Below, in pieces: positions 9,310 to 63,681 of a stretch of 64,000 nt of DNA. Within the stretch, counting starts at the first letter, position 1, and every line of letters begins with the position of its first letter. A program made the position numbers and the translations under genes. This stretch comes from Escherichia phage PNJ1902. The stretch lies in the sequence record OK254197.1. One strand, 5' to 3'. A model generated the notes under the pieces. It did no database searches, was not told the DNA's origin, and saw only the letters and a list, made by a program, of their open reading frames with translations.

Positions 9310-9564
9310 CTACACATCTAGCTCAACAATCTCCCAATCATCCGCTAGAGCTTCTTCTAGAGTAAGGTTTACTTGACGGATAAGTGGGGATTCCATACCG
9401 TTCTCCCACACATGTTCAGTCACTGTACCCTGCTCTACGTTAAATTCTAAAACCACTGTAAAGTGTTTATTATTTTCCCAGCAATCTCGCTGGAGATATT
9501 TTACGTCCCCAGCTTTCAGCAAATCTGTTAGCTTACTCACGGCGTTTTCCTTTTTCTTTATCAA
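9310..9564 (-). CDS. Hypothetical protein
   Basis: 84 aa ORF. Confidence 0.45.
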   Translation of the reverse strand: MIKKKENAVSKLTDLLKAGDVKYLQRDCWENNKHFTVVLEFNVEQGTVTEHVWENGMESPLIRQVNLTLEEALADDWEIVELDV

Positions 9565-18971: not shown

Positions 18972-19022
18972 CAATATTTTACTATAAAGTTCTGTAACAT
19001 GATCTGAGTCAAAAAATTTTAT

Positions 19023-19051
19023 TTGCCAATCTCTATTAAAAATTGTATAAT
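19023..19051 (+). promoter_or_regulatory. sigma70 promoter
   Basis: TTGCCA-17-TATAAT. Confidence 0.55.
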
Positions 19052-19163
19052 CACGCACTCGTGCACGCGATATAAAATGATTATCTAGTATCACACATCT
19101 CACGTTAAAAGCAAGCAAATTTTTTATTTAAATGCAATATCATAGGCTTATTTAAAATTGTAG

Positions 19164-19192
19164 TTGCTTTTTACTGTATATATTGGTATAAT
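19164..19192 (+). promoter_or_regulatory. sigma70 promoter for phoH operon
   Basis: TTGCTT-17-TATAAT. Confidence 0.65.
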
Positions 19193-19256
19193 ATATTTGT
19201 AAGTTGATAAACAAGATCTTTTTGTTGATCCTCTGTTAGCGAAGTACACTATAGGA

Positions 19257-20018
19257 GTGTTATTTATGGGAAAAGCACGTCAAAAAAGAGAGAACCGCAA
19301 TGGTTCAAGAAAGCGTGGCAACAAATATGAGAACAACGTAATTCAGGCTGATTTTTCTAATGATTACGCTAATCCAGTTGCTAAATCCCTAGTAGGTAAA
19401 AACCGCGAGCAAAAATCATATATCAATATGATCAAGAACAACACAGTGACTGTGGGTATCGGTGAGCCGGGTACTGGTAAAACCTTTATTCCGTCCGTTC
19501 TTGCAGCTCAGGAACTCGTAGACATTCACTCAGATATTGAGCAAGTGATCCTCGTACGTCCTAATGAACCTCTAGGTAAGTCTCTTGGTATGCTTCCTGG
19601 TGATCTAGCGGAAAAGCTAGAGCCTTGGTTGGAACCAATAGCTGATGGTATGAAATGGGCCATCGGCGATCATGCATATAAGGGATATGTCGAACGTCAG
19701 AAAATTAAATTTTTGGCTATCGAACATGCTCGTGGCAGAACTTTCAACAACTCCTATGTAATTGTCGATGAAGCTCAGAATATTTCCGTTGAGGCAATGA
19801 TTTGTCTCCTAACTCGTGTAGGACAAGACTGCCGTTTAATTATCTGCGGAGATATAGCTCAGAAAGACATTAAAGGTGACTCAGGTCTAGCACTCCTTAT
19901 GGAAGTCTATGAAAAATACGAAAATGCCCCATTCTCAATGATCGAATTGATTGATAACGTTCGTTCTGCTGAGTCTAAAGCATTCTATGACATTTTTAAA
20001 GACATGGGGAAGGTGTAA
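19257..20018 (+). CDS. phoH: PhoH-like ATPase
   Basis: 253 aa; Walker A GEPGTGKT; Walker B VIVDEAQN. Confidence 0.8.
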   Translation: MLFMGKARQKRENRNGSRKRGNKYENNVIQADFSNDYANPVAKSLVGKNREQKSYINMIKNNTVTVGIGEPGTGKTFIPSVLAAQELVDIHSDIEQVILVRPNEPLGKSLGMLPGDLAEKLEPWLEPIADGMKWAIGDHAYKGYVERQKIKFLAIEHARGRTFNNSYVIVDEAQNISVEAMICLLTRVGQDCRLIICGDIAQKDIKGDSGLALLMEVYEKYENAPFSMIELIDNVRSAESKAFYDIFKDMGKV

Positions 20019-59996: not shown

Positions 59997-60721
59997 TGAG
60001 TATAAAAAAGAATTTAGCAGAGATTATTAAGTTAGCTAGAGCTTGTAATGGGAAATATGTTTCTCAGCTTAATGAACTAGAGGCACATGCAGTAGCATTT
60101 TGTGCAGAGTTTTATCCTGCATACCTTAATGCTAGTGGACAGCCCAAATATAATAAAGATGCAGGAGAAGTTACGTTAGCTCCTTCATATATTAGCTTGC
60201 GTCGTCTAATCCAAACTGTTGATCCTACTATTAAAGGATTCTCAGCAGATTCATTCCACGTCTTTGCAGATAAAGAACTCCCGTATTTTAAAGAAGGAAA
60301 TGCAAAGTCATGTTTAGAATGTTATCCAAATATTCTGATGATTCCTCAAAAGCAATGTAAATACGATCATCTTCCTAGACTTACAAAGAAAGTAGAACCA
60401 CCTTATTCTTCTCTATCTGAATTAAAGCTAGGAATTGTATCTACACTTGCGCAGGTTCATCTAAGTATAGTTGACGACTCAACAACATCTAATCCTATTC
60501 TAGATGCTGCACACTTTGAAATTTTACGTGATCCTGAACAAGCTAGAAAAGTTGCAAAGTCTGTTAAGTTTGATATATCAACAATTCTTGACACTAAACA
60601 AGAAACTAGACCTAGAGGAAGTGTAGATTATTCTGCACTAAATTCCGAGTCATCTTATTTAGCAACATTCCTTTTCATGGCGTCAAAAGGGGTTATTCTA
60701 AAGGTTAATAAAGATGGATGA
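59996..60721 (+). CDS. Hypothetical protein
   Basis: 241 aa ORF. Confidence 0.55.
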   Translation: MSIKKNLAEIIKLARACNGKYVSQLNELEAHAVAFCAEFYPAYLNASGQPKYNKDAGEVTLAPSYISLRRLIQTVDPTIKGFSADSFHVFADKELPYFKEGNAKSCLECYPNILMIPQKQCKYDHLPRLTKKVEPPYSSLSELKLGIVSTLAQVHLSIVDDSTTSNPILDAAHFEILRDPEQARKVAKSVKFDISTILDTKQETRPRGSVDYSALNSESSYLATFLFMASKGVILKVNKDG

Positions 60722-61442
60722 TTTACGTGCTGAAATTAATAAAAAGCTACGCGAGGAAGCCAGGAGGTTTCCTCTTAAAAACTTTTTGAAGTCAAATGGC
60801 TCTACTAATATAACGAAGATTAGGCAACTTCACCCTGACTTCCAACAAGAGGCCTTAAACCTTATCTTTATTAGGAAAGCTTTAAAAGTCCAGAAAGAAG
60901 AGTATGGGTATGAAAGAGTTAATTATAAGACAGCCAATCAGTTAGTAGAGATATGGTGCTATAAACACAAAGGATACTTTATGCAAACTGCTAGATCTCA
61001 CCTAGATGGGCACGGTTGTTTACAATGTGCTAGAGAAAGCAACCTCAATACACCTATCGAGAAACCGGAAGTAGAAGAAGATGTTCAGTTCCCCACATAT
61101 CTCTATATCTTCTCTAATAAAGATCAGTCTAGGAAGAAATTAAAGACAAAGATTGGGGTTTCTAGAGAGCCACATCAAAGGTTTAAGAATCTAGAGTATG
61201 ATAAATTACGTGTGCCGGGTTTTGAAGATATGGAAGTATTTGGTATCTACCAATATAAGAAAGGATCGAAAGAACTCGCTTACAAAATAGAACACCAAGC
61301 ACATAAATTTTTCGAGAATAAATTTGCTAATCATTATAAATTCGATGGAGCAAAAGAGATATTCAACATTAAAGCTGTAGAGGCAGAAGAATATCTATTA
61401 AGTCAAGGTTGCATAAAAATTTACCCAACTCCAAACTCATGA
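60714..61442 (+). CDS. Two-domain protein: N-terminal domain paralogous to 58247-58693 plus C-terminal T5orf172 (GIY-YIG-like) domain
   Basis: 242 aa; C-terminal YLYIFSN...KIGVSREP...RFKNL motif. Confidence 0.55.
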   Translation: MDDLRAEINKKLREEARRFPLKNFLKSNGSTNITKIRQLHPDFQQEALNLIFIRKALKVQKEEYGYERVNYKTANQLVEIWCYKHKGYFMQTARSHLDGHGCLQCARESNLNTPIEKPEVEEDVQFPTYLYIFSNKDQSRKKLKTKIGVSREPHQRFKNLEYDKLRVPGFEDMEVFGIYQYKKGSKELAYKIEHQAHKFFENKFANHYKFDGAKEIFNIKAVEAEEYLLSQGCIKIYPTPNS

Positions 61443-61469
61443 CAAAAATTTAAAAGTAACGAAATTTGC

Positions 61470-61499
61470 TTGACATTCGTGAGAATAATGTGTTATAAT
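61470..61499 (+). promoter_or_regulatory. Consensus sigma70 promoter firing into the repeat locus
   Basis: TTGACA-18-TATAAT, no ORF downstream. Confidence 0.55.
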
Positions 61500-61851
61500 A
61501 ATCTCATAGATTAAAAACATCAACTTGTTTTTACCTCTAGGCCGTAGATTTACATCATTCCTCGTAGGAAAACACTTGATGACGGTTCTGCTCGCAGGTT
61601 CTCGTCAATTGTTCTTCCACACCGAGACTTAGGAGGATGTATCAAATCGCACGCGCCTAGAGGGGCTAACTCTCATGAAATGGGGGTATATTTACTTTTA
61701 AATAACTAAAAATATTTAAAGGCAATATCTGTGTTCAAGATGATACACCGGTTGCCTCTCATCTGCTAGGATGGCACAACACTTTCTCCTAGACTCCTAA
61801 GTTTCTAGGAATAGTTGAACACTACCTCTAGCGTTTACACTAAACTTTAAA

Positions 61852-62587
61852 TCGGATTTGCACATGTTCTAGGGCAGTTTTTCACCTACTATAAATATCC
61901 TAGGCCGGTTTTCCTATACAGGGCGGTTATGGGGAGGGCGGTTATTTCTAGACAACATTTTTTGAAAACACATTTCTGGATTTTACTGTCGGATTTGCAC
62001 ATTGTGTTTCTAGAAATTTATGGTCGGATTTGCACAATTGCCTAAGTTTTTAGGAACATATAATCTCCTGAAAATGGCAGCATTATTTCGGGCCGAAGGC
62101 CCATGTTTGCCTGAGTTTTTGGAGCCACAGAAATTTTCACTTGTCAAACTATTTTGCCCCATTTTGCTAATAAAATTTTACTTTATCTCCTCTAATCTCA
62201 AATTAACCTAAATCTTCTCAACTCTTCCCCAAAATCCCCGCAAATCGGGTGCCCCGCACCAAACATGCGCCCCTCCAGTTTCTCCTCTTATTTTCTCTCG
62301 CTCTCTCATCTTCTCCCCAAACCCACACAATCACACACCCTCCAATCGAAGTCACAAAAATCTTGTCGGATTCGCACATCTTAATCCTAGAAAAACCATG
62401 TCGGATTTGCACATACCCCACAGGATTCGAACGCAGTTCGTGATTGCTGGAGTTTTTGGGAAAATTCATTGTCGGATTTGCACACTATAAAAATTTTTCG
62501 GGTCGGATTTGCACACTACCAAAAATTGTCGGATTCGCACATACACGCCCGCACGTAACACCCGTGGAGCAATGTCGGATTTGCACA
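61852..62587 (+). repeat. Array of 9 direct repeats GTCGGATT(T/C)GCACA
   Basis: Copies at 61852, 61988, 62023, 62365, 62400, 62471, 62502, 62528, 62574, all same orientation. Confidence 0.8.
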
Positions 62588-62616
62588 AAAGCGCAGGGCA
62601 ATTGCCCTGCGCTAAA

Positions 62617-62830
62617 ATACGAATGATAATAAGAATCATTCTCATTTAAAAAGCGGAATGAGAATGATAATAATTCGCATTTAGAAAGTGAAATGATAAT
62701 CATTATCATTTAAAAAGCGGAATGATTCTCATTTAAGAAGTGAAACGATTCTCATTTAAGAAGTGAAACGATTCTCATTTAGAAAGTGAAATGCAAATGA
62801 TAATGATTCTCATTTAAGAATGGAAGTGAG
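62617..62830 (+). repeat. Tandem ~22-bp repeats (GATTCTCATTTAAGAAGTGAAAC-like)
   Basis: At least 8 imperfect copies; two identical adjacent units around 62727-62772. Confidence 0.7.
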
Positions 62831-62847
62831 AAACACTATTATTTAAG

Positions 62848-62929
62848 TTATCCACAGACTTATCAACAGCACGATTTGACTTGACAAAATTCTAGCCGTT
62901 TTGAAGCGTTATCAACAGACTTATCCACA
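62848..62929 (+). promoter_or_regulatory. Cluster of four DnaA-box-like 9-mers
   Basis: TTATCCACA at 62848 and 62921; TTATCAACA at 62860 and 62909; same orientation. Confidence 0.55.
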
Positions 62930-63150
62930 GCTTATCCTACTGTATAAATATACAGTATTCCTACGCAGCGAATAATTCTAATATACCGCTAAAACGCTCT
63001 CAAACGCATTCTAACGCGTTTAATTTTGTTGGGGATACTAAAACAAGGGCAAAATTGGAGGAGGCTTGAAAATTAGTTAGCCCGCTAACGATCACACAAG
63101 GCGACACGTAACACCCTAACCATTAGCAGGCTAACCATCGCGGGCGCGGT

Positions 63151-63173
63151 CAAATGAGAATGATTCTCATTTG
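63151..63173. repeat. Perfect 23-bp palindrome
   Basis: CAAATGAGAAT-G-ATTCTCATTTG. Confidence 0.7.
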
Positions 63174-63213
63174 AGAATTGGGGGCACTTCCAGATAGTTG
63201 CGCCCCGTGATTA

Positions 63214-63408
63214 TTAGTCGGGTAGTCGATGCGTGATTTTTTCCTCCTCCCCATAGGAATCTACCAAATACTGATAATAACCATCGTGATCATAAATCAC
63301 TTTATCATAATCGCCACGCTCGACCGCTTGTCGGTTTTCCGGCGTATCGGGCACGTAAAAAATATCAACCATTGTACTAGTTTTGGTTACAACAATTTTA
63401 TTGCTCAT
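63214..63408 (-). CDS. Hypothetical protein
   Basis: 64 aa ORF beyond the repeat locus. Confidence 0.4.
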   Translation of the reverse strand: MSNKIVVTKTSTMVDIFYVPDTPENRQAVERGDYDKVIYDHDGYYQYLVDSYGEEEKITHRLPD

Positions 63409-63681
63409 AATAACGCCCTAGTAAATATATTTTTGCCAATAGTGGCGAACGTTATCGCCACCAGCGGAATCATTAGCGGCCTTACTATTACCAACGAAAG
63501 TATATAATCTCATTAGTATTATTTTCCTTGCATTAATTTATATATAACGAACATCCCGCAAAACTGCCCTAATATAGTGCAGACAACAAGGGATAACACA
63601 ATATTGCCGATCATGTTATAAGTAACCATACCAGTAATAAGGGATAGCGCATACCCTAGCAAAGCAATATAAACAGCCATA

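What the first reader, a model, noticed from the sequence alone, without database searches (positions are those of the whole stretch)
62848..62929. Four DnaA-box-like sites in one orientation next to tandem repeats
TTATCCACA (two copies) and TTATCAACA (two copies) match the E. coli DnaA box consensus TTWTNCACA. Together with the adjacent 22-bp tandem repeats (62617-62830) and the 23-bp palindrome (63151-63173), this looks like an origin-like or DnaA-titrating module. It sits inside an early phage region with no ORFs.
Basis: partly seen in the sequence, partly recalled or inferred. Interest (0 to 1): 0.65.

Follow-up and report, generated by a model that had tools for sequence, protein, structure and literature searches.

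The report
Phage T5 injection-stop DnaA boxes
These four sites are the already-published cluster of host DnaA-protein binding boxes in the non-coding "injection stop signal" region of a T5-like phage, not a replication origin, and they lie next to what look like undescribed binding sites for two more host regulators, LexA and Fur.

Summary
Four DnaA-type 9-mers lie on one strand within 82 bp: TTATCCACA at 62848 and 62921, TTATCAACA at 62860 and 62909. No shuffle of 200 reached such a cluster. TTATCAACA does not fit TTWTNCACA; it has one mismatch.

The window is a T5-like phage. The boxes are the IRC'-spacer-IRD' element of T5 "Repeat Region 3", the injection-stop-signal (iss) region, about 750 bp inside the right end of the left terminal repeat. 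These boxes were reported in 1987. Davison (2020) compared them in 25 phages and proposed that membrane-bound DnaA stops DNA transfer. So the finding is already known, though its function is still untested.

The geometry is two pairs with 3-bp gaps, each pair one perfect and one weak box. This matches the "double DnaA box" that DnaA needs in vivo. Origin features are absent: no 13-mers, no IHF site, one GATC, no initiator gene.

New here:
- The adjacent palindrome at 62938-62957 is one mismatch from the LexA box consensus. It is the best-conserved element across three Demerecviridae subfamilies.
- The "tandem repeats" and the 63150-63174 palindrome are Fur-box-like.

The iss region may be a landing pad for three host regulators.

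The parts
62848..62856 (+). DnaA box 1, TTATCCACA (perfect high-affinity consensus); the outer box of the first double box
   Evidence: TTATCCACA in 29 of 41 unique modules.
62860..62868 (+). DnaA box 2, TTATCAACA (8/9; A at position 6); the inner, weak box, 3 bp after box 1
   Evidence: At this position relatives carry TTATTAACA, TTATCAACA or TTATCCACA.
62881..62886 (+). Conserved TTGACA hexamer in the 40-bp spacer between the two double boxes; function unknown
   Evidence: pairwise identity 0.915, against 0.74 for the spacer as a whole. No usable -10 hexamer lies 16-18 nt downstream.
62909..62917 (+). DnaA box 3, TTATCAACA (8/9); the inner, weak box of the second double box
62921..62929 (+). 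DnaA box 4, TTATCCACA (perfect); the outer box. It starts 73 bp (about 7 helical turns) after box 1.
   Evidence: TTATCCACA in 24 of 41 modules.
62938..62957 (.). LexA (SOS) box-like palindrome TACTGTATAAATATACAGTA, equivalent to T5 'palindrome D'. One mismatch from TACTGTATATATATACAGTA.
   Evidence: the best match in 60 shuffles had 4-6 mismatches; present in every relative examined, including Pectobacterium and Vibrio phages; the best-conserved element (0.93); the same 20-mer lies at the 5' end of a DinI-domain ORF (in or just before it) beside replication gene A in a P2/186-like contig.
62617..62830 (.). AT-rich (72%) tandem repeats, equivalent to T5 DRC copies and palindromes E-I. They carry Fur-box-like units, including a perfect 7-1-7 box TGATAATCATTATCA at 62694-62708. 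The estimated shear point of first-step-transfer DNA (T5 9618) maps to about 62640.
   Evidence: five 7-1-7 matches with at most 2 mismatches in 62600-63200, against 0.006 expected; the Rfam PrrF hit is driven by what I read as the Fur box in that model; coordinate mapping.
63150..63174 (.). Perfect 12-1-12 palindrome TCAAATGAGAAT-G-ATTCTCATTTGA with a Fur 7-1-7-like core (TGAGAATGATTCTCA)
   Evidence: (I17). Similar palindromes occur at the corresponding place in many relatives and in Vibrio phage SJ1. T5 itself has none there.
62590..62613 (-). GC-rich perfect palindrome AGCGCAGGGCAA/TTGCCCTGCGCT (T5 palindrome J). It has a T-run only on the - strand, which makes it the first good intrinsic terminator for pre-early transcripts. 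It contains the homologue of T5 major nick site 1 (about 62591-62598).
   Evidence: (I16), the sequence, the T5 annotation and the mapping.
61852..62588 (+). Nine DRD repeats TCGGATT(T/C)GCACA, all in the same orientation as the DnaA boxes. They straddle the inferred right end of the terminal repeat (about 62122).
   Evidence: D4; terminal-repeat annotation; mapping; the core ATTTGCACA is one mismatch from TTWTNCACA.
61443..63213 (.). The whole non-coding zone between convergent genes, equivalent to T5 Repeat Region 3, the injection-stop-signal (iss) region
   Evidence: the record of phage S114 labels the matched stretch 'similar to DNA injection stop signal on T5st0mutant'.

Best explanation
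The four sites are the DnaA-box core of the IRC'-spacer-IRD' element in the injection-stop-signal (iss) region of a T5-like phage (Tequintavirus). This non-coding zone is the last part of the first-step-transfer DNA to enter the cell.

Shown: the sites form two 'double DnaA boxes'. Each is one perfect plus one weak 9-mer, 3 bp apart, and all four point the same way.

Inferred: each double box binds a dimer of host DnaA that is already present in the cell, so no phage protein synthesis is needed. Together with an adjacent consensus-strength LexA box and flanking Fur-box-like arrays, the boxes assemble a host-protein/DNA complex on the DNA just inside the membrane at the pause point. That complex takes part in controlling the pause, or the state of the DNA during the pause, between first- and second-step transfer. 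Davison's version is that membrane-bound DnaA anchors the DNA.

It is not a replication origin.
For: Identity:
- 455 phage records match 61900-63300 at 80-95% identity, and nearly all are T5-like.
- In SPC35 and T5 the match lies at the right end of the annotated left terminal repeat or first-step-transfer DNA.
- Alignment to AY587007 places the boxes on T5 IRD'/DRB/IRC' (9332-9462) and the palindrome on palindrome D.

Not chance: 0 of 200 shuffles reached the cluster.

Selection:
- Among 30 proximal modules the mean pairwise identity is 0.80-0.89 for the boxes and 0.93 for the LexA-like palindrome. It is 0.74 for the spacer and 0.36-0.57 for the flanks.
- Over 41 unique modules, including the inverted distal copies, the boxes follow TTATN[C/A]ACA. 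Position 5 is free, and the outer boxes are mostly perfect.
- In Vibrio phages SJ1 and Cody and in Pectobacterium phage My1, the DnaA 9-mers and the CTG(T/G)-N8-ACAG palindrome are among the few elements of the module that survive. The other survivors are GCACGATT in the Vibrio phages and a TTGAC core in My1. The surrounding DNA has diverged.

[quoted passage not shown] One box may be imperfect, and one extra base between the boxes abolishes binding (PMC11317965).

Position: the estimated shear point of first-step-transfer DNA (T5 9618) maps to about 62640, 210-290 bp beyond the boxes in the direction of entry.

Published hypothesis: 10.1101/866236.
Against: - No experiment has shown DnaA binding or any function. 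[quoted passage not shown]
- Half of the boxes carry A at position 6, which is outside the Schaper-Messer consensus.
- A protein bound to DNA that is already inside the cell does not obviously stop DNA being pushed in by capsid pressure (my inference).
- According to Davison, complete genome injection can be shown in vitro with FhuA proteoliposomes. The stop therefore needs something cellular, but that something need not be DnaA.
- The sequence between and around the boxes (GAC, AGGTTATCC) is also very well conserved within enterobacterial phages. A phage protein reading a longer site would explain that equally well.
- From memory, T5 does not need host dna genes for growth. I could not verify this here.
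Confidence: 0.6

Rival explanations
1. Replication origin, either DnaA-dependent and oriC-like or iteron-type. DnaA bound at the boxes would open the adjacent AT-rich tandem repeats and load a helicase.
For: - DnaA boxes lie directly next to a 72% AT tandem-repeat block.
- From memory, this superficially resembles P1 oriR and pSC101, which combine DnaA boxes with iterons.
- Davison himself calls the arrangement 'reminiscent of oriC'.
Against: - No 13-mer DUE motif within 2 mismatches, no IHF consensus, and one GATC in 1.77 kb against 3.4 per kb in the window.
- The repeat spacing is irregular (23, 29, 35 bp), unlike phased iterons.
- No initiator or Rep gene among the neighbours. The adjacent ORF has a T5orf172 domain (Pfam) and matches endonuclease and homing-endonuclease families in PHROGs.
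- The module is duplicated in inverted orientation inside the pre-early region.
- Published EM mapping places T5 origins near the genome centre, and the replication genes arrive only with second-step DNA (10.1101/866236).
- No similarity to any plasmid.
Confidence: 0.08
2. Transcription roadblock or insulator. DnaA, LexA and Fur bound downstream of the last pre-early gene would stop host RNA polymerase from reading into DNA that has not yet entered, and possibly from pulling it in as in T7. This would back up the only good intrinsic terminator at 62613-62590.
For: - The module lies between the last pre-early ORF (63214-63408, - strand) and the first - strand hairpin with a T-run.
- All boxes share one orientation.
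- DnaA/DnaA-box complexes are reported to block transcribing RNA polymerase in an orientation-dependent way (Schaefer & Messer 1988 and 1989, as cited in PMC10950094).
- Using several pre-existing host repressors would give redundancy.
Against: - I could not read which box orientation is the active one, because the paper is not held.
- The distal inverted copy lies between divergent promoters, where no read-through is expected (T5 annotation).
- There is no evidence that transcription drives T5 DNA entry.
Confidence: 0.12
3. The sites are read by phage proteins, not by host regulators. Candidates are the DNA-binding pre-early protein A2 with A1, or terminase. The resemblance to DnaA, LexA and Fur operators would be coincidental, or the palindromes would be cleavage sites (Davison's suggestion for PalD-PalJ).
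For: - In enterobacterial phages the bases between the boxes are as conserved as the boxes themselves.
- A2 is a DNA-binding dimer needed for second-step transfer.
- The DRD repeats next door have a conserved prefix (TCGG) that no host motif explains.
Against: - Three independent near-consensus matches to three different host operators occur in one 600-bp stretch.
- In Vibrio phages the inter-box bases change while the 9-mers and CTGT-N8-ACAG stay.
- The same Fur-like unit AAATGAnAATCATTnTCATTT recurs as a tandem array in an unrelated myovirus, tuntematon.
- The stop needs no phage protein synthesis.
Confidence: 0.12
4. Ordinary regulatory region. The operators would control one or more promoters inside the non-coding zone. 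One candidate is a + strand promoter whose -35 lies in the LexA box (TATACA-16-AATAAT, 62949-62976). Others are - strand promoters at 63003->62975 and 62866->62838. They would produce a non-coding or antisense RNA that responds to SOS, iron and DnaA status.
For: - There are 15 promoter-like matches in 61300-63500, against 6.5 +/- 2.5 expected.
- A comparable TATACA-17-TATTAT follows the palindrome in Vibrio phage Cody (my reading).
- LexA, Fur and DnaA normally act as repressors that overlap promoters.
Against: - Fur boxes themselves resemble -10 hexamers, which inflates the promoter count.
- The candidate hexamers are weak (9-10 of 12) and are not conserved in Klebsiella or Pectobacterium phages.
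- There is no downstream ORF.
- A T5-like phage is recorded with host strain DH5a, which is recA1 from my knowledge. LexA cleavage is therefore not essential.
Confidence: 0.08

Closest known systems
T5 injection stop signal region: Repeat Region 3, IRD'-spacer-IRC' with DnaA boxes (Heusterspreute 1987; Wang 2005 annotation of AY587007; Davison 2020, 10.1101/866236)
   Same: It is the same element. It has the same place at the right end of the left terminal repeat and the same order of repeats: DRD, palindrome J with the nick site, DRC, IRC', spacer, IRD', palindrome D. The boxes are paired with 3-bp gaps, and the module has no length change relative to T5.
   Different: This phage has two perfect boxes (1 and 4), whereas T5 has one (T5 box 4 is TTATCCCCA). 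It also has an extra perfect palindrome at 63150-63174 that T5 lacks. The LexA and Fur likeness of the neighbouring palindromes is not mentioned in the texts I could read (0 occurrences).
'Double DnaA boxes' of the E. coli DnaA regulon: purH, polA, mutH/DARS2, mioC (Stringer, Fitzgerald & Wade 2024, PMC11317965)
   Same: Two 9-mers head-to-tail with a 3-bp gap, one perfect and one imperfect. This is the arrangement shown to be needed for DnaA occupancy in vivo.
   Different: Here two such pairs lie 40 bp apart on a phage genome, downstream of genes rather than at a promoter. Binding has not been shown.
oriC, datA and DARS DnaA-box clusters
   Same: A cluster of high- and low-affinity DnaA boxes in a fixed geometry next to AT-rich DNA.
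   Different: There are no DUE 13-mers, no IHF site and no GATC cluster. All boxes point one way. There is no similarity to host DNA.
LexA operator of the tum antirepressor type in P2/186-like prophages
   Same: The identical 20-mer TACTGTATAAATATACAGTA lies at the 5' end of a DinI-domain ORF (in or just before it) next to replication gene A in an IMG/VR contig.
   Different: In the T5-like phage the box lies at the 3' end of an operon with no gene to repress, next to DnaA boxes, in a strictly virulent phage.
Fur box arrays: aerobactin promoter, PrrF/RyhB-type promoters
   Same: Overlapping GATAAT-type hexamers or 7-1-7 units, including one perfect TGATAATCATTATCA. Rfam PrrF model positions 1-33 look like the promoter -35 and Fur box (my reading of the consensus) and align to 62720-62688 with high posterior probability.
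   Different: There are about eight units over 210 bp plus a separate palindrome, with no clear promoter. Many units have G or C at the fourth position (TGAGAAT/ATTCTCA).

Membership tests
T5-type injection stop signal region (IRD'-spacer-IRC') | Sequence homology to T5 9332-9462 and the same order of flanking repeats | tested here: met
   The module aligns without indels, and the DRD, palindrome J, DRC and palindrome D equivalents all map.
T5-type injection stop signal region (IRD'-spacer-IRC') | Location in the non-coding zone at the right end of the left terminal repeat, just inside the first-step-transfer shear point | tested here: met
   The terminal-repeat end maps to about 62122 and the shear point to about 62640. 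The boxes are at 62848-62929.
T5-type injection stop signal region (IRD'-spacer-IRC') | Acts in cis to stop DNA transfer | not testable with these tools
   This needs infection experiments. As of 2023 it had not been shown even for T5 (PMC10644984).
Double DnaA box (in vivo DnaA binding unit) | Two 9-mers close to TTATCCACA, same orientation, 2 or 3 bp apart | tested here: met
   9/9 + 8/9 and 8/9 + 9/9, each with a 3-bp gap. The criterion comes from PMC11317965.
Double DnaA box (in vivo DnaA binding unit) | DnaA occupancy | not testable with these tools
   ChIP or footprinting is required.
oriC-like DnaA-dependent origin | Cluster of DnaA boxes | tested here: met
oriC-like DnaA-dependent origin | AT-rich DUE with 13-mer repeats (GATCTNTTNTTTT), a GATC cluster and an IHF site | tested here: not met
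   No 13-mer within 2 mismatches, no WATCAANNNNTTR and 1 GATC in 1.77 kb. An AT-rich repeat block does exist.
oriC-like DnaA-dependent origin | Replication starts here | not testable with these tools
   The literature summary in 10.1101/866236 places T5 origins near the genome centre.
Iteron-type plasmid or phage origin | Phased direct repeats (about 22 bp) bound by a Rep protein encoded nearby | tested here: not met
   Spacing is 23, 35, 29, 23, 23, 35 bp. The neighbours are unknown-function proteins and one with a T5orf172 domain that matches endonuclease families in PHROGs. There is no plasmid similarity.
LexA (SOS) box | Match to TACTGTATATATATACAGTA with CTGT-N8-ACAG intact | tested here: met
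   1 mismatch, against 4-6 for the best match in shuffles. The consensus is as used in PMC8072944.
LexA (SOS) box | Conserved across relatives whose hosts share the gammaproteobacterial LexA motif | tested here: met
   A few phages have CTGG or CTAT in one half-site.
LexA (SOS) box | Overlaps a promoter that it represses | tested here: inconclusive
   Only weak promoter-like matches were found. There is no downstream gene.
Fur box | Match to GATAATGATAATCATTATC (at least 14/19) or to 7-1-7 TGATAATNATTATCA | tested here: met
   One perfect and four matches with at most 2 mismatches to 7-1-7 in 62600-63200 (0.006 expected). Thirteen 19-mer matches (0.06 expected). The units are tandem repeats, so the copies are not independent.
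Fur box | Fur-Fe binding or iron-dependent regulation | not testable with these tools
   Needs a gel shift, a Fur titration assay (FURTA) or ChIP.

The most novel reading that the evidence does not exclude
The 'repeats and palindromes' of the T5 injection-stop region, unexplained since the 1987 sequence, may be a composite landing pad of consensus-strength operators for three pre-existing host regulators:
- two double DnaA boxes;
- a LexA box (T5 palindrome D);
- an array of Fur boxes (T5 DRC repeats, palindromes E-I, and the 63150-63174 palindrome).

The DnaA and LexA parts are conserved across Demerecviridae subfamilies, from E. coli to Vibrio phages. The Fur-like arrays are kept in most of these lineages but not in Vibrio phage Cody.

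On this reading, the pause of DNA transfer, or the state of the paused DNA, is set by a host-protein complex that needs no phage gene expression and could sense host growth, DNA-damage and iron status.
Probability: 0.3. Interest if true: 0.75.

Novelty: already known. Interest (0 to 1): 0.4.

Why it matters
Why T5 DNA transfer stops after 8% of the genome has been an open question for more than fifty years. The DnaA boxes themselves are not news. Three points sharpen the published DnaA hypothesis:
- The boxes have exactly the double-box geometry that DnaA needs in vivo.
- They are conserved as far as Vibrio phages.
- They are accompanied by a near-perfect LexA box and by Fur-like boxes.

The question becomes testable with standard host mutants (dnaA(ts), lexA(Def) or lexA(Ind-), delta-fur) and simple phage site mutants. 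If host repressors are recruited, it would be an unusual case of a strictly virulent phage wiring genome entry to host regulators.

Tried and rejected
- Small RNA: Rfam search of 61300-63500 gave only a sub-threshold PrrF hit (38 bits against a gathering score of 90). The alignment shows it comes from what looks like a Fur box at the start of the model plus the terminator hairpin, so I do not count it as evidence of an sRNA. The strong fold of the repeat region (z -7) is expected from palindromic repeats and was not pursued.
- Origin features: 13-mers, IHF consensus, GATC cluster and GC skew were checked. All were absent, or explained by the switch in gene orientation.
- Host or plasmid source of the module: no BLAST match in 5,426 E. 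coli genomes or in PLSDB.
- Sampling relatives through the neighbouring 242-aa ORF gave only 3 loci, because it appears to be a mobile endonuclease-type gene. I used BLAST hits and a palindrome pattern scan instead. The pattern scan is biased towards loci that keep the palindrome, so conservation of the palindrome rests on the BLAST-selected loci.
- A promoter using the conserved TTGACA as -35: no -10 hexamer at 16-18 nt in either copy of the module (reading).
- A LexA-cleavage timer for second-step transfer: rejected as an essential mechanism, because a T5-like phage is recorded with host DH5a, which is recA1 from my knowledge.
- Papers not held: the Davison 2015 review and Schaefer & Messer 1989. 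I therefore could not verify which DnaA-box orientation is active in transcription blocking, nor rule out an earlier mention of LexA or Fur in subscription papers.

Full report
**What is there**

The sequence shows TTATCCACA at 62848-62856 and 62921-62929, and TTATCAACA at 62860-62868 and 62909-62917. All four are on the + strand. They form two pairs with a 3-bp gap (GAC) inside each pair and 40 bp between the pairs. A degenerate third unit, TTATCCTAC, follows at 62932.

The exact pattern TTWTNCACA returns only the two TTATCCACA sites. Eight matches in the whole window is what chance gives. No shuffle of 200 produced four same-strand sites within one mismatch of TTATCCACA in 82 bp.

The neighbouring repeats have periods of 23, 29 and 35 bp. 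The palindrome is a perfect 12-1-12 at 63150-63174.

**Where it is**

The stretch 61900-63300 matches 455 phage records at 80-95% identity, almost all T5-like.

In Salmonella phage SPC35 the match lies at the right end of the annotated left terminal repeat, described there as comprising the first-step-transfer DNA. The window's + strand is the reverse complement of the usual T5 orientation.

Alignment to T5 (AY587007) maps the features as follows (the coordinates printed are one too high):
- The four boxes map to T5 inverted repeats D' and C' and direct repeat B (9332-9462).
- The next palindrome maps to 'palindrome D'.
- The tandem repeats map to direct repeat C and palindromes E-I.
- The GC palindrome at 62590-62613 maps to palindrome J with major nick site 1.
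- The nine TCGGATTTGCACA repeats map to direct repeat D.
- The end of the terminal repeat maps to about 62122.

The zone 61443-63213 has no annotated gene in T5 and lies between convergent genes. The record of phage S114 labels the matched stretch 'similar to DNA injection stop signal'.

**What is already known**

Davison's preprint (10.1101/866236) makes four relevant points:
- The DnaA boxes in this element were seen in 1987.
- Comparison of 25 T5-like phages shows eight boxes in pairs separated by 3 bp. Four are here and four are in an inverted copy about 3 kb to the left in T5 orientation.
- Davison proposes that membrane-bound DnaA binds them and stops DNA transfer.
- An origin is judged unlikely, because T5 origins map near the genome centre and the replication genes have not yet entered.

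A 2023 paper on BF23 says experimental studies of these sites are lacking (PMC10644984). The finding as given is therefore already known, and its function is still open.

**Evidence that the boxes are under selection as DnaA sites**

I collected modules from 17 BLAST-selected records and from an IMG/VR pattern scan. The conservation results are:
- In 41 unique modules the four positions follow TTATN[C/A]ACA. Position 5 is free. The outer boxes 1 and 4 are mostly perfect, and the inner boxes 2 and 3 are mostly TTAT(C/T)AACA.
- Mean pairwise identity among 30 proximal modules is 0.80-0.89 for the boxes, 0.74 for the spacer and 0.36-0.57 for the flanks.
- In Vibrio phages SJ1 and Cody, in Pectobacterium phage My1 and in the Klebsiella Sugarlandvirus phages, the surrounding DNA has diverged but the 9-mers remain.
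- A 2024 ChIP-seq and mutagenesis study shows that E. coli DnaA binds in vivo mainly to 'double DnaA boxes' 2 or 3 bp apart, often one perfect and one imperfect. One extra base between the boxes abolishes binding (PMC11317965). That is exactly the geometry here.

**Tests of the origin reading**

- There is no 13-mer DUE motif, no IHF consensus, and only one GATC in 1.77 kb against 3.4 per kb in the window.
- The repeat spacing is irregular.
- The neighbours are proteins of unknown function and one with a T5orf172 domain (Pfam) that matches endonuclease families in PHROGs. None is an initiator.
- There is no similarity to E. coli genomes or to plasmids.
- The turn in cumulative GC skew at about 61-62 kb coincides with the convergent gene switch.

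I rate the origin reading at about 0.08.

**New observations next to the boxes**

First, the palindrome at 62938-62957, TACTGTATAAATATACAGTA:
- It is one mismatch from the LexA box consensus TACTGTATATATATACAGTA (consensus as used in PMC8072944). The best match in 60 shuffles of the window had 4-6 mismatches.
- It is present in every relative examined, always 17 nt after the start of box 4 in enterobacterial phages. It is the best-conserved element of the module, at 0.93.
- Vibrio phages keep CTGT-N8-ACAG. My1 has CTGG in one half-site.
- The identical 20-mer lies at the 5' end of a DinI-domain ORF (in or just before it) beside replication gene A in a P2/186-like contig. That is the classical position of a LexA-controlled antirepressor (the 186 tum analogy is from my knowledge).

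Second, the 'tandem repeats' and the 63150-63174 palindrome are Fur-box-like:
- One perfect 7-1-7 box, TGATAATCATTATCA, lies at 62694. Four more matches with at most two mismatches lie in 62600-63200, against 0.006 expected from local shuffles. Only one further match occurs in the other 63 kb.
- An independent curated model points the same way. The sub-threshold Rfam PrrF hit aligns what I read as the Fur box at the start of that model to 62720-62688 with high posterior probability.
- The same unit, AAATGAnAATCATTnTCATTT, forms a three-copy array in an unrelated myovirus, tuntematon. This favours a host factor over a T5-specific protein.
- Caveat: the copies are tandem repeats and are not independent. 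Vibrio phage Cody lacks them.

Neither LexA nor Fur is mentioned in Davison's text. No held paper combines T5-like phages with LexA or Fur boxes. The older subscription papers could not be read.

**How it most likely works**

Shown:
- The element is the DnaA-box core of the T5 iss region.
- It is conserved far beyond its surroundings.
- It has the in vivo DnaA binding geometry.
- It lies 210-290 bp inside the estimated shear point of first-step-transfer DNA.

Inferred: pre-existing host DnaA, probably with LexA and Fur, assembles on this DNA as it enters, without phage protein synthesis. This complex takes part in the pause or in the state of the paused DNA.

The weak point is physical. Proteins on DNA that is already inside the cell do not obviously stop further entry, so the anchoring model remains a hypothesis.

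Rivals:
- A roadblock for pre-early transcripts upstream of the only good - strand terminator.
- Sites for phage proteins such as A1/A2.
- Ordinary operators of weak internal promoters.
- An origin.

LexA cleavage cannot be essential, because a T5-like phage is recorded with host DH5a, which is recA1 from my knowledge.

**Verdict**

The LexA and Fur reading of the neighbouring elements is the part worth following up. It is cheap to test with purified proteins and standard host mutants.

Noticed in passing
window 62938-62957: Near-perfect LexA/SOS box TACTGTATAAATATACAGTA (T5 'palindrome D') directly after the DnaA boxes. It is the best-conserved element of the module across Tequintavirus, Epseptimavirus, Sugarlandvirus, Myunavirus and Vibrio T5-like phages. 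Its central dinucleotide flips between AA and TT from phage to phage. It is not described as a LexA site in the papers I could read.
   Followed up: yes
window 62617-62830 and 63150-63174: The tandem repeats and the perfect palindrome are Fur-box-like. There is one perfect 7-1-7 box at 62694-62708 and four more with at most 2 mismatches. The Rfam PrrF model aligns here through what looks like its Fur box.
   Followed up: yes
L140 (Escherichia phage tuntematon NC_052660) 1497-1590: An unrelated Phapecoctavirus carries a three-copy tandem array of the same AAATGAnAATCATTnTCATTT unit in an intergenic region. Fur-box-like arrays may therefore be a wider feature of virulent coliphages.
   Followed up: partly
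window 61852-62588: The nine DRD repeats TCGGATT(T/C)GCACA straddle the inferred end of the terminal repeat (about 62122). Their core ATTTGCACA is one mismatch from TTWTNCACA. Together with the four boxes this gives 12 relaxed-consensus 9-mers on the + strand and none on the - strand in 61800-62960, against about 1.5 expected per strand. The repeat is kept in Pectobacterium, Klebsiella and Vibrio relatives. What binds it is unknown.
   Followed up: partly
window 61470-61700: A perfect sigma-70 promoter (TTGACA-18-TATAAT with an upstream TG) lies just after the stop of the 242-aa ORF. It is followed by about 190 nt with no ORF, a strong predicted fold (-64.2 kcal/mol, z -5.8) and a terminator-like hairpin with a T-run at 61669-61697. 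There is no Rfam match. Of 437 matching T5-like records, 113 cover at least 80% of 61443-61800. This is a candidate small RNA.
   Followed up: partly
window 62881-62886 and 62869-62876: The hexamer TTGACA, and GCACGATT just after box 2, stay conserved in the otherwise variable 'spacer'. TTGACA is kept (in places only as TTGAC) in proximal and distal copies of enterobacterial, Klebsiella and Pectobacterium phages, but not in the Vibrio phages. GCACGATT is kept in the proximal copies and in both Vibrio phages. No -10 hexamer lies at promoter distance.
   Followed up: partly
window 62551-62563 and 63104-63116: The motif (A/G)CACGTAACACCC occurs twice, flanking the module. Related copies (CGCACGTAACACA, CATGTAACAC) occur at corresponding places in Vibrio phages SJ1 and Cody. 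It is unexplained.
   Followed up: no
window 62590-62613: A perfect GC-rich palindrome (T5 palindrome J) contains the homologue of T5 major nick site 1 (CCCTGCGC, about 62591-62598). It has a T-run only on the - strand, so it looks like the terminator for pre-early transcripts.
   Followed up: partly
window 61443-63213: GATC occurs once in 1.77 kb, against 3.4 per kb in the window as a whole. Dam/SeqA sites are strongly depleted in the non-coding zone.
   Followed up: no
window 60714-61442: The 242-aa ORF bordering the non-coding zone has a T5orf172 domain (Pfam) and matches endonuclease and homing-endonuclease families in PHROGs. It is present in only a few relatives (3 loci in IMG/VR), so it is probably a mobile insertion.
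   Followed up: partly
window about 19000-20000: The cumulative GC skew has its minimum here, and its maximum at about 61-62 kb. Both points look like switches in gene orientation. The 19-20 kb point maps roughly to the middle of a T5-type genome, where the literature places the replication origins.
   Followed up: no
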